Assembly (NCBI RefSeq): GCF_026571515.1
Contig: NW_026865674.1
Span: forward strand, 1-64,000
From: Ruditapes philippinarum
Lineage: Eukaryota
DNA length: 64,000 bases
Reading direction: 5' to 3'
Part shown: piece by piece, positions 12,001-64,000 of the stretch
Position numbering within the stretch: the first letter of the stretch is position 1
Layout: each line of letters starts with the position of its first letter
Made by a program: the position numbers

Positions 12001-15000
12001 CAATATAAAAATTTTAACATATAATAACAAATGAATACGAAAAGATGGTATAGAATAAAAATGGCGCTTTGATATTGCATTACGGTCATCGTAAACAGGA
12101 TATCGTAAAATGTCGTCCGATAGTGGTATACACTAACGAAAAAAGTCTGTTTAAATTATGGAACTAAGAAGTTGCTTTATGAACTTTGGAGGACTTCCAA
12201 ATCCATAATCTGATCGCGCCGAAATACGAACAAAACCAGTCTGCTAGCGACGAATATAACAAGGATACCCATAGGACATTGACTAATGAAGTAACACAAT
12301 CTGAAAATTACTATATAATATATAAATCCGAAAGCTAGTCGGAAGTTTCCCAACAATAGATACAGCGCTTGTCGCGCGCTGATATATTTTCTAAATACCT
12401 ATCACATCAGAACAAAAATAATACATATCATGAGCACCAGTCAGCATAAGTTTCCAGCAATGGGAAACAGCGCTAGTCGCGCACTGACTACTTCACTAAA
12501 TGCTTAACACATCATAACAAAAGTAATACATATCATGATCCCTGGTCGGCATGTTCCCAGCAATGGGCTACTAGCGCTCTCGCGCTCAGACTATATCACT
12601 CAATACTTAACACATCAGAATAAAAGTAATATACCAGTATCGGGCTTGAGCGCCTTGTTGCGCTCTGACTATTTCACTAAATACTTCAGACTAAAAGTAA
12701 TACATAAACCTAGTAATCGTGTGCACACGTCGTTCTCCCAGATGTTTGATACGGCTCCGGAGGGCTGGCACTATAATTGATGAGAAAAAGAACCAACAAA
12801 AGATTCATTTTCCATATTACAAAAATTATAACGTTAATAAATTATATTAAATATCCAGTCTGCAGTTTCCCGAAATGGCCTACAGCGCTGGTCGCGCACC
12901 GACTACTTTCCTAACAAAATACTATAGAACACAGACGCAAAATTTCATGCCTGTCGATTTTAGTATAAAAATGATATCAATACCAATAAAGTGTGCACAC
13001 GTCGTTCATCTGGGAGTGCCGACACAGCCCCGTAGGGCTGGCACCATTATAGGTGAATAATAGTAATTATCATAAATTTACAAACAAAAATAAAAATAAT
13101 ACTAAATTGACTCATAAATTTAATTTAACATACATTAAGGCTGATTTGTGTTGCTTCATTCATAAAAATGCTAGATGAACTTTGTAGGACTTACTACATG
13201 TACTATTCACAATCAGACTTATGTGTTGTTGTATATTGTTATATAATGAATGTATATACATGTATATATGTTATTTGCCTTTAACCATTTTTATTTTTTG
13301 ACAGAATAGTTATTTAGTTGTTCTTGGTTACGGTGTTAATAGTGATTATTTTTGAAAATAATATATACTTATCAGGTTTATGAATTAAAAACTTACACGG
13401 CACTGTATTTATTAAATAAATAGCCATGTATTGTCCAACAATAATGACCTGGCACTTCATTAATTTCCGTAAAGGTCAGGTTATAAACAGTGGTATCTAA
13501 CGAATATATCGATATCTTTATTACCTTCACACGTCAATGAGTTGTGGTGTATTGGTATAGATGCCTGACTACTGATCTGAAGTTCCCTGGTTCGATACCT
13601 TACCAACAACATGTTATGAGGACATACATTTTTTTTTATTTCATTTTGAAATTAACTTGCAAGAATTAATTTGAAATCGTTTTACTACATCTTGTTTTGA
13701 GGATACATTTTAAGTAGTGTTTTTATACAATTTTATTTTTTATTTACATTATCTTTAATTAATAAAAAGGACAGCACGTCCATATTTAAAATTCATACAA
13801 AACCAAAAAAACTCAAAACGATTTGCACGAGTTAAGAGAGAAATAGCAATTTTAAAATAAGAAAAAAAAATATAGAAGTGGCCGAACCAGGATTCGAACC
13901 TACGAGTGTGCGTCTATATTCTTGAAGTGAAAGCACTTTACGACTGTGCTAAGAGGGATTTGTAATTTAAATCATTTAACAACTGGTTATATACATTCAT
14001 ATCGATTTACAATAGATTGTAACGTTTACGGAATTAGCCGACTATGGGGTCAAATGCAAGAGTGCCAGGTCAATGTTGTTGGACAATACCATCTTACGTT
14101 TTTATAGGTACAACAAGTATTTGTATTTACATTTTGTTTACGATGCTGCTAGTGATAATGAATATAACAAATACCATTAATGGATGTTTAACCAAACCTA
14201 CACAGTAAAGGATATACGATGACGGAAACAAATTTCTTAAATTACTTTCGCTTTCGGCTTTTGTTAAGGAATATATAAAGTACATTGTAAATACAATAAT
14301 TTCATGTAAAGATTACTATATACTAGAAAAATCGAATATATAACCACCGAACTGGCTGACAGACTGGTCTAACTCACATATAAACAAGTCTTACACACAG
14401 TCCAGTCCATGATAGTCAGTAATTTTGGTCCATATGAGCTGTCAGTCATTTCGGAGGTTTTACCGACGAGGAGTTCAACAACTCATATTACATATCATTC
14501 AAATGCAAGGAAACAATAAATTTCCTGTTGTTGCTTTCTACGCACAGCTTTTAGTTTGTTCCAGACATTGTGATTAACAAAGGTGATACCATCTGATCAG
14601 AATATAATGATGTTGCAAAATAAGTGAATTTATTATAAGCTTTGTATTAAAGATATATTCGGCTTTAATTCCATGTTTGCTAACAAAGACAGACACTTGT
14701 ATGTTAAAACACTTTAAAATAATATAACATTTGACATTAAAATAACCAGGAAATTCATAATATTGGAAGAGAAAAAGATATATGAAAATAACTAAAATCT
14801 TAAAAAACCGCCGACTTTTTAAGCGACGAGTGAACGCGCAAATTACCGATCATATACGGAAACGATCGAAATAGTATCGGAAACATTCGAAGTTATGAAT
14901 ATTAAATGAGGCTAGAATTCAAAAACAATGGCGGACGCGAAGGATGCGACGGAAGTAAAACAGAAATTAAAAAGGAAAAGAGTCTCTAAAGTGACAGATT

Positions 15001-61900: not shown

Positions 61901-64000
61901 GATTCCAGCTTTAACTAACCCGTTCTATTGTAATGATTAACCGCAGTATACGTATGAATTTACGAAGTGCACTCTCTTAAATAGAACGTTAGACATGGAA
62001 ACTAACGTACCATAAAAAGCAGCCGAGACATTTAATGTATGTGTTGTTTTAAAAAATCATGAACCTATCACTATGTTCCGCATATCGTGAAATCAGTTAA
62101 TTCTGGTCAATGAGTTATACATCGTTTGAAATCAACATTCCTCAAAATCGTCCTAAATAATGGGTTTAACGTTCCAAATTGTGATCAGTTATTAAACATC
62201 TATTTAACCATTCATCGTATAGTATTTCTATTAAATAAAAGGTATAATACTGGATGATAAGATCACATTACATTTGCGCAATTGCAAAACAAATATAAAT
62301 GTAAATTATTCATTGTTAGTGTGTTATTTAGCTTCTGGACAGTAACAATCTTTGTTTCCCATGATTAAACAAGACAAACTACATATTTCTGTTTTATTTG
62401 ATCTATTTTGAATGCTGTTCAAAGTGTTCAAAGTGAGAATTTAAGTTATTTATATATTGCTTACAACACAAAATGGTATTGCGTAGATATCATTATATCT
62501 CAGACGTCAGACAACATTTATGGCTATCGTTTTTAAATGTGTGCTGTAAAAGATAATCCATGCTATTTAAGAGATCGAAAGAAAAGAGCAGAGCAAAATT
62601 TCTATTATGTCTTATTTCTGTTGTGTTTTCAGAAAGATGTTTCAAAGCAATTTTATCAATTTTAGTCCAAAGTACGAATGCATATCATTCATCATAAAAA
62701 CAACATACTAGATCCTGAGAAAAAATGTGAAATAAAGAGGTCACTATACATAGTTGAAAGCAATACTTATTCTATTGATGGATCCCTATTCTGACATTTT
62801 CTATTCCGATTTTCTGCAATTACTGTTGTCACATGGCCATCTAACTTTTTACGAATACTTTACCATTATTTTGCATGGCTTAATAAAACTAAGCCTACAA
62901 ACATTTCATAATTTTGCTGTTTTATTGTGTTCTTTCGGGTTTCAGGTGTTCTCTATTTTAAGGCGAAGTAACTAATGTTTACTAAATTATTTTTTGATAG
63001 ATTTTTTTACTTGCTTTATATACCTTAGACTTAGATTTTTTTTTCTTGCTTTATATATCTTAGACTGGATCTTTCTAGATTGTTCAGTTAGTACATATAT
63101 ATATACCTACAGTTATTCTGCTACAGGAATCTTCTCATCACTATGTGAAACTAAATTATTATATTCTATGTGTTTGTATATAAATTGTTAATAAATAACC
63201 TTTGGTAAAAATGAAAGGTAGAAAATTAAAGCTATGCATATAGGTGCTCATGTCCATATTATAACAGAGAAAAAATAACATCCTGAAGTTATCAATTTTT
63301 AAACACTTGATAAACAGTTGTATAAGCAGTTAGTTATATAGTTAAGTCTAATGGAAGGTTAAAAGTATGACAGTATTTGTTAACTGTATTTTAAAAGAGA
63401 TCTATGCATTTAATGTTTAGACATTCTCACAACTCAATCTTTCTAATATGATACAGACTATTTGAGATTTTTTTTACTTTAATACTATACATTATAGTTT
63501 CCTTTCTACAAGATTATGAATTCCATCCAAGTACCAATGTTAAAGGATGTTATATCTACTTTTAATGGAAACTGAGACTCAAAATATTCAAGAAAAGTGG
63601 AGGATGGCCGGCTATCGGGCATTTTTCTTGGAGAGGTGAACGAAATCGTGATCGCTTTCTTTCTCTCTTAAATCTCCACAAATGAGACCTGATCATGGTC
63701 ACATGATTGCAGAAACCTAGAGCACTAGGGAGAATACTTTCAGGATGAATGACACTTGTTAAATTTTGTATTTAGCTAACGATGTGATGAAAGTCATTTA
63801 TTGTATTGTCACCGTGCGCCGGGGGTTCGTACCCCTTGTCATTTGAAAATGTCACATAATTGTTATTTGTAAACATATTTTATTTATTTTTTTGGACTGT
63901 ATATAGAGAACATGTTCCGATTTTTGTTTCTTGTAAAAATATGAACGTAAATTAAAAAACTGTGAACAGTAGAGCTGCAGTCGTATTACTTTTTTGAAAC

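What the first reader, a model, noticed from the sequence alone, without database searches (positions are those of the whole stretch)
14493..62380. Apparently gene-free ~48-kb mosaic of one unit in mixed orientations
Seen: A1(+), B1(-), B2(-), C/A2(+) and C'(-) are overlapping partial copies of a ~12-kb unit best represented by 35.9-47.9 kb. C' joins C sequence directly to the start of A2, showing they belong to one unit. Copies differ in divergence, so duplication happened repeatedly. I found no conserved ORF. Inference: recurrent inverted duplication of a non-coding unit beside dense TE debris fits a hairpin-RNA/endo-siRNA, miRNA or piRNA-cluster-like locus, or simply an unstable region.
Basis: partly seen in the sequence, partly recalled or inferred. 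Interest (0 to 1): 0.65.

Follow-up and report, generated by a model that had tools for sequence, protein, structure and literature searches.

The report
Decaying cluster of non-coding duplicated DNA
About half of this 48-kb stretch is old, broken copies of two non-coding DNA blocks in both orientations, which looks like ordinary neutral duplication and repair debris in an invertebrate-type genome rather than a working small-RNA locus.

Summary
The repeats are real: 87 non-self BLAST pairs in the window against 0 in each of 5 shuffled windows. The description is overstated. Only 50% of 14493-62380 has any second copy.

The "12-kb unit" is composite:
- block X, about 4.9 kb, 2 inverted copies
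- a 2.2-kb single-copy insert
- block Y0, about 3.2 kb, 4 copies in the order + - - +
- 1.4 kb of flank (Z)
- part of a MITE-like element (G)

Only about 20-45 bp of Y0 sit beside X in a second copy.

I found no coding or known RNA signal. Of 90 ORFs of 60 aa or more, 1 hits Pfam, and it is a truncated mariner. Of 297 shorter ORFs, 0 hit. Synonymous fractions are flat in all frames, ORF lengths match shuffled sequence, and Rfam and ARAGORN find nothing.

Copy B1 is a chimera. Its left part groups with B2 (8:1:1 informative sites). Its right part groups with the reference copy (16:1:0) and carries the reference flank, ending inside G and inside a mariner ORF.

SINE insertions with target-site duplications and empty sites in sister copies post-date the duplications.

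Best reading: a neutrally decaying low-copy repeat cluster reshaped by homology-driven copying. A small-RNA role is untested and has no positive support. Genome-wide copy number could not be checked.

The parts
14495..14650 (+). A0: detached fragment of block Y0 (reference 43646-43803)
   Evidence: 91.8% over 158 columns to the reference; also matches B2 and B1
14651..17872 (.). 3.2-kb single-copy insert splitting copy A. It holds a SINE (15713-15935), a 51-bp tandem array (15235-15372) and a T32 run.
   Evidence: No second copy except the SINE; tandem repeats; SINE; no terminal inverted repeats
17873..21194 (+). A1: copy of Y0 (reference ~43815-46112), with a 5'-truncated SINE at 19023-19084
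   Evidence: (90.4% substitution identity to the reference over 43870-45789); SINE with TSD and empty site in the reference
21191..21275 (.). Perfect ~25-bp-stem hairpin at the right edge of A1, part of an old palindromic segment
   Evidence: DNA fold -26.5 kcal/mol, z -6.28, 0 of 200 shuffles as good; alignment
22274..22507 (+). Truncated mariner transposase ORF (Mos1 residues 195-274 of 345), cut off exactly at the B1 edge
   Evidence: Pfam PF01359 E 3.7e-10, 40 bits against cut-off 24; PDB Mos1 3hos_A E 1.3e-9, query 1-78 = chain 195-274. Upstream frames look mariner-like only by recall; no hit.
22509..26252 (-). B1 young part: copy of reference 47947-44885 (right part of Y0, flank Z, first 427 bp of G), with a SINE fragment at 25748-25871
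   Evidence: 92.8% and 94.3% substitution identity; groups with the reference 16:1:0; shares a deletion and a flipped segment with the reference; SINE TSD
26256..27479 (-). B1 old part: copy of reference 44143-42930; reference 44144-44884 is missing at the old/young joint
   Evidence: 84.5% identity to the reference; groups with B2 8:1:1; B1-B2 distance 0.213 against 0.25 to the reference
28118..34684 (-). B2ext: oldest Y0 copy (reference 46112-42945), stretched to 6.6 kb by insertions. Colinear pieces lie at 28118-28306, 28744-29209, 30140-30253, 31048-31127 and 32648-34684. An internal tandem duplication lies at 30274-30466 and 30861-31049.
   Evidence: (65-88% identity)
35908..40598 (+). 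Block X, reference copy (continues at 42785-42945)
   Evidence: Colinear with C' 62376-57806; 79.1% (35908-37806) and 89.4% (37949-40598) substitution identity
40599..42784 (.). 2.2-kb single-copy insert in reference X, absent from C'
   Evidence: no TSD or terminal repeats seen; its 99-aa ORF has no Pfam hit
42913..42945 (+). DR1: left copy of a 33-bp imperfect direct repeat flanking reference Y0
   Evidence: 24 of 33 identical to 46124-46156 (family D5). Ungapped score 15, against a maximum of 14 in 2971 random window pairs.
42946..46123 (+). Block Y0, reference copy (~3.2 kb)
   Evidence: Covered by A, B1 and B2ext; the left end is shared by the reference, B1 and B2 within ~15 bp
46124..46156 (+). 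DR2: right copy of the 33-bp direct repeat
46157..47519 (+). Z: flank of reference Y0, shared only with B1
   Evidence: 88-98% identity per 200 bp to B1; no other copy
47520..48137 (.). G: GC-rich, MITE-like element with 14-nt terminal inverted repeats and a repeated 18-nt motif. B1 holds only its first 427 bp.
   Evidence: The TIR motif matches exactly twice in the window, in inverted orientation (expected 0.18; 2 of 100 shuffles gave 2 or more); motif family D2; alignment
48138..57610 (.). Single-copy stretch with two SINEs (49320-49538, 51980-52152)
   Evidence: SINE TSD; ORF lengths as in shuffles; no Pfam hit
57401..57900 (.). Homopolymer-rich patch at the left edge of C', possibly a consensus or assembly error
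   Evidence: 53-59% of bases lie in runs of 3 or more, against a window mean of 26% (sd 7%); sequence
57611..62376 (-). C': inverted copy of X plus the first ~20-45 bp of Y0, with a private tRNA-like SINE at ~59740-59918

Best explanation
This is a neutrally decaying cluster of low-copy, non-coding repeats in an AT-rich, invertebrate-type genome. It is not one 12-kb unit and, on present evidence, not a functional locus.

Two unrelated blocks are repeated. Y0 (~3.2 kb) has four copies in the order + - - +. X (~4.9 kb) has two inverted copies.

Shown:
- The copies have different ages.
- B1 is a chimera. Its left third is sister to B2. Its right two-thirds is sister to the reference copy and drags along 1.8 kb of the reference copy's flank. 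It ends inside a MITE-like element and abuts a mariner ORF cut at residue 274.
- The reference and B1 share derived indels.
- SINEs inserted into single copies after duplication.
- No frame shows coding constraint.

Inferred:
- The old copies arose by insertion or duplication of non-coding DNA. Reference Y0 is flanked by a 33-bp decayed direct repeat.
- Later, a broken old copy at the B1 site was repaired by copying from the reference copy, through the end of homology into its flank (gene conversion or break-induced replication), and sealed by end joining.
- Short inverted repeats flipped or truncated a palindromic segment at the right end of Y0.
- The pattern is a by-product of repair and replication errors, with no selected function.
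For: Repeats are real and partial.

No coding signal:
- 1 of 90 ORFs of 60 aa or more in the region passes a Pfam cut-off, and it is mariner.
- 0 of 297 ORFs of 40-59 aa hit at E <= 1e-3.
- The synonymous fraction is 0.11-0.31 in all 6 frames of all 10 pair alignments, with stops in every frame.
- ORFs of 80 aa or more number 18, against 18.4 +/- 4.1 in shuffles. The flank 1-14492 has 24 against 7.2.
- One Y0 ORF has no relative in the protein collection.
- The 74-aa ORF pair in X is 82% identical in protein at about 87-89% DNA identity, as expected without constraint.

No known RNA: Rfam gives 0 at gathering score and 0 at E <= 1; ARAGORN gives 0.

Chimera: informative sites are 8:1:1 for (reference, A1 | B1, B2) in 43870-44143, and 16:1:0 for (reference, B1 | A1, B2ext) in 45589-45985. 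Identity steps from 84.5% to 93-94% across the B1 joint.

High identity reflects recency, not constraint: B2ext is only 65-80% identical in the tracts where the reference, B1 and A1 are 85-98%.

Breakpoints are not TE ends. B1 ends at Mos1 residue 274 and inside G. No mariner remainder lies on the far side of B1.

Post-duplication SINEs carry 11-14-bp TSDs, with empty sites in the sister copies.
Against: - The left end of Y0 coincides within ~15 bp in three copies, and C' stops within ~30 bp of it. That is easier to explain if Y0 is a mobile element with a defined terminus.
- Reference Y0 has a significant flanking direct repeat, which could be a long target-site duplication.
- Four copies within 50 kb could reflect a high-copy dispersed family. 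Genome-wide copy number could not be checked, because no eukaryotic DNA collection was on hand.
- Expression and small RNAs are unknown, so a function cannot be excluded.
- The donor-recipient scenario for B1 is inferred from one window.
Confidence: 0.6

Rival explanations
1. Y0 and X are copies of unclassified non-autonomous transposable elements (dispersed repeats) that landed independently in a TE-rich region. The mosaic is TE nesting plus one younger local duplication.
For: - The left terminus of Y0 is shared in the reference, B1 and B2.
- A 33-bp direct repeat flanks reference Y0: score 15, above all 2971 random pairs.
- There are four Y0 copies in 50 kb.
- The region demonstrably accepts TE insertions: six SINE copies, a mariner and a MITE-like G.
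- The two Y0 lineages (reference+A1, B1+B2) could be subfamilies.
Against: - No LTRs or terminal inverted repeats bound the unit or Y0.
- There is no TE protein remnant in X or Y0.
- Flanking repeats at the other copies score 7-11, within the random range (99th percentile 11).
- A is truncated on the left, and A1 and B2ext end inside a palindromic segment.
- The reference and B1 share flank Z and the junction with G, which only block duplication explains.
Confidence: 0.25
2. The inverted copies form a small-RNA source. Read-through transcripts fold into long imperfect dsRNA (hpRNA/endo-siRNA) or feed a dual-strand piRNA cluster, and exchange between arms keeps them complementary.
For: - Inverted pairs contain many exact runs of 21 nt or more: 42-46% of columns for reference/B1 in 44.9-47.9 kb, 26% for X/C' in 37.9-40.6 kb, and 15% for A1/B1.
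- Sequence exchange between arms did occur.
- All 6 SINE copies of one family lie on the + strand. This would fit one long transcription unit, such as an intron, though that is my inference.
Against: - The arms are 3.6 to about 18 kb apart and gapped, with 8-35% gap columns.
- hpRNA arms in the passages read in PMC10317233 are near-perfect and match target genes or TEs. These arms match no coding sequence.
- Recognisable TE sequence is about 6% of the region (sum of parts), unlike TE-fragment-rich piRNA clusters (abstract starts).
- Rfam finds nothing.
- The strongest local hairpins lie in G, SINE heads and mariner. Windows at or below -25 kcal/mol number 42 (+ strand) and 39 (- strand), against 24 in a single shuffle.
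- The oldest arms have decayed to 65-80% identity.
Confidence: 0.1
3. Part of the pattern is an assembly artefact, such as false joins or a badly polished patch.
For: The patch 57401-57900, at the edge of C', is an outlier in homopolymer content (53-59% against 26 +/- 7%). It reads like a stuttered copy of reference 42785-42960.
Against: The copies are 65-98% identical, not near-identical. Each has private indels and SINE insertions with TSDs, with empty sites in the sister copies. Assembly errors do not produce this.
Confidence: 0.03

Closest known systems
Segmental duplications (low-copy repeat clusters) with interlocus gene conversion. This concept, and the usual >=1 kb / >=90% identity criterion, are recalled and come from no call.
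   Same: Blocks of several kb of non-coding DNA, in direct and inverted orientation within tens of kb. They carry embedded unrelated elements and flanks. The divergence is mosaic, and tree topology switches along one copy.
   Different: Only the reference/B1 young tract (about 3 kb, 93-94%) meets the usual identity criterion; the rest is older (65-90%). The shared left end of Y0 and the flanking direct repeat hint at a mobile origin for the oldest copies.
Drosophila hairpin-RNA (hpRNA) loci that make endo-siRNAs (PMC10317233; passages read)
   Same: Inverted repeats of non-coding sequence that arose by local duplication; repeated duplication at one locus.
   Different: There, the arms are near-perfect, lie within a discrete transcript and match target genes or TEs, and the loci are defined by Dcr-2-dependent siRNAs. 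Here, the arms are 79-94% identical, gapped and kilobases apart, with no target homology found. No expression data exist.
[quoted passage not shown]
   Same: A gene-poor stretch of tens of kb with repeats in both orientations, next to LINE debris.
   Different: Recognisable TE sequence is only about 6% of the region. The repeated blocks are low-copy within the window and unclassified. The defining piRNA density cannot be tested.
Rearrangements driven by inverted repeats: fold-back or origin-dependent inverted-repeat amplification (PMC4689423) and IR-induced rearrangements (PMC10164571). Only the search listing and the start of each abstract were seen.
   Same: Short inverted repeats and a perfect hairpin sit at a copy boundary (21191-21275). 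An IR-flanked ~150-bp segment is flipped between copy lineages.
   Different: The layout is not the direct-inverted-direct triplication with junctions at short IRs. B1 does not start where A1 ends (Y position ~46112 against 47947), so a simple fold-back origin of the A1/B1 pair is rejected.

Membership tests
hpRNA / endo-siRNA hairpin locus | Inverted-repeat arms with near-perfect complementarity inside one primary transcript | tested here: not met
   The arms are 79-94% identical in substitutions, with 8-35% gap columns. Spacers run from 3.6 kb (A1/B1) to about 15-18 kb. The transcript itself is not testable.
hpRNA / endo-siRNA hairpin locus | Arms homologous to a target gene or TE | tested here: not met
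   No Pfam domain in any arm ORF of 40 aa or more. One Y0 ORF has no relative in the protein collection. Targets elsewhere in the genome could not be searched.
hpRNA / endo-siRNA hairpin locus | Dicer-dependent 21-22-nt siRNAs from the arms | not testable with these tools
   No small-RNA data.
piRNA cluster | Dense, uniquely mapping 24-31-nt piRNAs | not testable with these tools
   No small-RNA data.
piRNA cluster | Enrichment in nested TE fragments of many families | tested here: inconclusive
   Recognisable TE sequence (SINEs, mariner, G) is about 2.9 kb of 47.9 kb, or about 6%. X and Y0 might be unclassified TEs.
miRNA cluster / known structured RNA | Match to a described RNA family, or an excess of conserved precursor-like hairpins | tested here: not met
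   Rfam gives 0 at gathering score and 0 at E <= 1. The top hairpins lie in G, SINE heads and mariner. The excess over a single shuffle is mild.
Large transposon (LTR, TIR, Helitron-like, LINE) | Terminal repeats (LTR or TIR) bounding the unit | tested here: not met
   No long direct or inverted terminal repeats in 35500-48600.
Large transposon (LTR, TIR, Helitron-like, LINE) | TE protein remnants inside the unit | tested here: not met
   None in X, Y0 or Z. The only hit, mariner, lies outside the repeated blocks at a breakpoint.
Large transposon (LTR, TIR, Helitron-like, LINE) | Target-site duplications and common termini in independent copies | tested here: inconclusive
   A direct repeat flanks 1 of 4 Y0 copies; the other copy edges tested score 7-11, within the random range. 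The left end is shared by 3 copies; the right ends are ragged.
Large transposon (LTR, TIR, Helitron-like, LINE) | Many dispersed copies genome-wide | not testable with these tools
   No eukaryotic genome collection is on hand. Two exact-pattern scans of the prokaryote collection found 0 matches.
Segmental duplication / low-copy repeat | >=1 kb at >=90% identity (criterion recalled) | tested here: met
   Reference 44885-47947 against B1 22509-26252: 92.8-94.3% substitution identity over about 3 kb. The other pairs are older (79-90%).
Segmental duplication / low-copy repeat | The copy includes unrelated embedded elements and flank, with breakpoints not at element ends | tested here: met
   The reference and B1 share Z and the Y-side junction of G. 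B1 ends inside G and against mariner residue 274.
tRNA-derived SINE (the ~220-bp repeat) | Short non-coding element with a pol III box-like head, a simple-repeat tail, target-site duplications and 5' truncation | tested here: met
   TSDs of 11-17 bp, an (AAAC)n-like tail, two 5'-truncated copies, and empty sites in sister copies. The tRNA-like head is my reading of the sequence against a recalled box B consensus. ARAGORN and Rfam report no tRNA.

The most novel reading that the evidence does not exclude
The locus is a young-to-old series of inverted non-coding arms lying inside one long transcription unit. All six SINE copies of one family point the same way, as expected for an intron or a long non-coding precursor. 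Read-through RNA would fold into kilobase-scale imperfect duplexes that feed endo-siRNA or piRNA production or heavy A-to-I editing. Exchange between arms, as seen in B1, would renew the complementarity.
Probability: 0.1. Interest if true: 0.55.

Novelty: new member of a known kind. Interest (0 to 1): 0.2.

Why it matters
If the neutral reading holds, the locus is ordinary. Its use is as a worked example: a dot-plot "mosaic of one unit" can break down into separately repeated blocks, a chimeric copy made by homology-driven repair, and later SINE insertions.

It would matter more if genome-wide data showed either of two things. X or Y0 might be a new non-autonomous element with unusually long target-site duplications. 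Or small-RNA data might show that the inverted arms are a dsRNA source in a non-model invertebrate.

Tried and rejected
- **Whole-frame Pfam scan.** Scanning six whole-frame translations failed because the tool does not accept stops. It was replaced by all stop-to-stop ORFs of 40 aa or more.
- **Copy number by proxy.** I queried the protein collection with a Y0 ORF as a proxy for genome copy number. It returned nothing, not even the window's own ORF, so it says nothing about copy number.
- **Prokaryote scans.** Exact-pattern scans of genome contigs with a Y0 25-mer and a SINE 24-mer gave 0 and 0 matches. That collection is prokaryotic, so this is uninformative.
- **Homopolymer compression.** I compressed homopolymers to test whether C' continues into Y0 past the noisy patch. 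The score was 108, against 108, 109 and 90 for control regions, so the test does not discriminate.
- **Sensitive BLAST of copy flanks.** No extension of homology was found.
- **Missing mariner third.** I looked for it on the far side of B1 and for PDB or Pfam support for mariner sequence upstream of 22274. There were no hits. The upstream frames look mariner-like to me only by recall.
- **Terminal repeats.** No LTR, TIR or TSD was found at the unit, at the 3.2-kb insert in A, or at the 2.2-kb insert in X.
- **Fold-back origin of A1/B1.** Rejected, because B1 starts at Y position 47947 and not where A1 ends (~46112).
- **Selective constraint.** Rejected as the cause of the high-identity tracts, because the oldest copy is not conserved there.
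- **Not attempted.** Structure, complex and atlas tools were not used, because no protein candidate emerged.

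
Full report
**Source and context.** The window is 64,000 bases with no N, 31% G+C, and a CpG observed/expected ratio of 0.90.
- Bases 1-14.5 kb hold a non-LTR retrotransposon. Its domains are endonuclease (7169-7579, E 6e-18), reverse transcriptase (9469-9951, E 2.9e-20) and an RNase H-like domain (10742-11023). A second, inverted 3' fragment lies at 2208-3234.
- The reverse-transcriptase piece has 1502 relatives at E <= 1e-3 among 2406 candidates, the best 77% identical. The few named ones come from a sea spider and from contaminant-looking records of bacterial assemblies.
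- I take the window for an invertebrate-type animal genome, not human. The species stays unknown, and I did not try to trace records.

- Self-BLAST gives 57 non-self pairs at E <= 1e-20 (best 2602 bits) and 87 at E <= 1e-6. Five block-shuffled windows gave 0 each.
- Only 50.0% of 14493-62380 has any second copy in the window, against 21% of the rest of the window.
- Long stretches are single-copy apart from SINEs: 16-17.9, 21.2-22.5, 34.7-35.9, 40.6-42.8 and 48.1-57.6 kb.

**Anatomy.** When everything is mapped onto 35.9-47.9 kb, the "unit" splits into separate parts.
- Block X (35908-40598 plus 42785-42945) has one inverted copy, C' (62376-57611). Substitution identity is 79% in the left part and 89% in the right part.
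- Reference 40599-42784 is a single-copy insert that C' lacks.
- Block Y0 (42946-46123) has four copies:

| Copy | Coordinates | Strand |
|---|---|---|
| A | 14495-14650 and 17873-21194, split by a 3.2-kb insert | + |
| B1 | 22509-27479 | - |
| B2 | 32648-34684, continuing as decayed colinear pieces back to 28118 | - |
| Reference | 42946-46123 | + |

- Z (46157-47519) and the first 427 bp of a GC-rich element G (47520-48137) are shared only by the reference and B1.
- G has 14-nt terminal inverted repeats that occur nowhere else in the window.
- No copy but the reference spans X and Y0. C' ends about 20-45 bp into Y0, in a noisy patch. B1 and B2 begin within about 15 bp of each other at the Y0 start. 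Sensitive BLAST of the flanks finds no further homology.
- No LTRs or long terminal inverted repeats bound the unit.

**Coding and RNA content.**
- Of the 90 stop-to-stop ORFs of 60 aa or more inside the region, 1 passes a Pfam cut-off: mariner Transposase_1 at 22274-22576. One more has a sub-threshold match at E 0.009.
- None of 297 ORFs of 40-59 aa from 13 kb onward has a hit at E <= 1e-3.
- In ten pairwise copy alignments the synonymous fraction is 0.11-0.31 in every one of six frames, and stops fill all frames.
- The ORF-length distribution of the region equals dinucleotide shuffles (80 aa or more: 18 against 18.4 +/- 4.1). The LINE-bearing flank shows a clear excess (24 against 7.2 +/- 2.8).
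- A 74-aa ORF open in both X copies is 82% identical in protein at about 87-89% DNA identity, as expected without constraint.
- One Y0 ORF has no relative in the protein collection.
- Rfam finds nothing at gathering score or at E <= 1, and ARAGORN finds no tRNA.
- A sliding-fold scan shows only a mild excess of stable hairpins over a single shuffle. The strongest lie in G, SINE heads and mariner.

**History of the copies.**
- Identity is a mosaic. Left of about 44150, all Y0 copies are 75-88% alike. Right of it, the reference, B1 and A1 are 85-98% alike, while B2ext stays at 65-80%.
- Four-taxon informative sites switch topology. In 43870-44143 they give 8:1:1 for (reference, A1 | B1, B2). In 45589-45985 they give 16:1:0 for (reference, B1 | A1, B2ext).
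- B1 is therefore a chimera. Its old part (26256-27479) is sister to B2. Its young part (22509-26252; 93-94% to the reference) is sister to the reference. Reference 44144-44884 is missing at the joint.
- The young part runs past the end of Y0 through Z into G. It stops at a point that is not an element end. In B1 it abuts a mariner ORF that aligns to Mos1 residues 195-274 of 345 and stops there.
- The missing mariner third is not on the other side of B1.
- G is complete only in the reference copy, so the reference was the donor (inference).
- The reference and B1 also share a ~125-bp deletion and the flipped orientation of an IR-flanked ~150-bp segment relative to A1 and B2ext. Those two copies both end inside that palindromic segment. 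A1 ends in a perfect 25-bp-stem hairpin (z -6.3).
- The high-identity tracts are not conserved in the oldest copy. They therefore reflect recency or exchange, not constraint.

**Later insertions.** A ~220-bp SINE occurs six times in the window.
- The full copy at 49320-49538 has a 17-bp target-site duplication.
- B1 carries a 5'-truncated copy (25748-25871) with a 14-bp duplication, and the reference has the empty site.
- A1 carries another (19023-19084) with an 11-bp duplication, and the reference has the empty site.
- C' has a private insertion of a second tRNA-like element at about 59740-59918.
- These insertions show that the copies are true old paralogues and not assembly duplicates.

**Transposon or segmental duplication?** The evidence is mixed.
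- For a mobile origin of Y0: the shared left end, and a 33-bp imperfect direct repeat (24 of 33) that flanks the reference copy exactly. Its ungapped score of 15 exceeds all 2971 random window pairs.
- Against: the other copy edges tested show nothing above the random range. There are no terminal repeats and no TE protein. The ends are ragged, and the shared flank and G junction in the reference and B1 can only be explained by block copying.
- I could not measure genome-wide copy number.

**Small-RNA readings.**
- If one transcript spanned both arms, exact runs of 21 nt or more would cover 42-46% of reference/B1 columns in 44.9-47.9 kb, 26% of X/C' in 37.9-40.6 kb, and 15% of A1/B1. So dsRNA is physically possible.
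- The arms are kilobases apart, gapped, and match no gene or coding TE. The hpRNA loci in the passages I read in PMC10317233 have near-perfect arms that match targets, and they are defined by Dicer-dependent siRNAs.
- piRNA clusters are described as loci rich in TE fragments (abstract starts). Recognisable TE sequence here is about 6%.
- None of this is a test of expression, which remains open.

**Verdict.** This is a real but ordinary feature: a neutrally decaying low-copy repeat cluster, reshaped by homology-driven copying and riddled with SINEs. Interest is low. The boldest reading still open is an intronic or long-precursor dsRNA source, which I put at about 10%.

**Papers.**
- PMC10317233: abstract start and searched passages.
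- PMC4689423 and PMC10164571: search listing and abstract start only.
- 10.1101/344572 and PMC6471301: abstract start only.
- No supplements were consulted.
- The >=1 kb / >=90% criterion for segmental duplications, the box B consensus and the look of mariner N-termini are recalled and come from no call.

Noticed in passing
window 11272-11487, 15713-15935, 19023-19084, 25748-25871, 49320-49538, 51980-52152: All 6 copies of the ~220-bp SINE lie on the + strand (two-sided chance about 1 in 32). The second SINE type at ~59740-59918 does too. This may mean the window lies inside one transcription unit, such as a long intron.
   Followed up: partly
window 57401-57900: A patch where 53-59% of bases sit in homopolymer runs of 3 or more (window mean 26%, sd 7%). 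It reads like a stuttered copy of reference 42785-42960. It may be a local consensus or assembly error, exactly at the edge of C'.
   Followed up: partly
window 47520-48137 (partial copy 22509-22977): A GC-rich 618-bp MITE-like element with 14-nt terminal inverted repeats, flanking TA, and four copies of an 18-nt near-palindromic motif. It diverges faster between the reference and B1 (73-82%) than the AT-rich flank does (94%), with several CpG/TpG differences.
   Followed up: partly
window 7169-11023 and 2208-3234: A degenerate non-LTR retrotransposon (endonuclease, RT, RNase H-like) on the + strand. An inverted 3' fragment is 86-93% identical to it. The + copy carries a SINE insertion at 11272-11487 with an 11-bp target-site duplication.
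   Followed up: partly
window 42913-42945 and 46124-46156: A 33-bp imperfect direct repeat (24 of 33, first 11 exact) flanks the reference copy of Y0 exactly. It could be a long target-site duplication or a microhomology footprint.
   Followed up: yes
window 21191-21275 and 45985-46112: A perfect ~25-bp-stem hairpin at the end of copy A1. The matching IR-flanked ~150-bp segment is flipped in the reference and B1 relative to A1 and B2ext.
   Followed up: partly
window 31718-31817: A strong isolated hairpin (RNA fold -36.3 kcal/mol per 100 nt, with a 14-bp perfect stem) in a single-copy insert of B2ext. Nature unknown.
   Followed up: no
window 8804-9284, 9284-9347, 12343-12631, 15235-15372: Tandem arrays: 162-bp x2.9 followed by (GGAC)16 inside the LINE region; 105-bp x2.8; and 51-bp x2.7 with a C11 run.
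   Followed up: no
window 3648-3896: A ~250-bp segment that matches its own reverse complement at 70% (a palindrome).
   Followed up: no
window 30066-30206: A 140-bp piece inside B2ext that resembles C' 60800-60927 (71.5%). A stray fragment of block X sits inside a Y0 copy.
   Followed up: no
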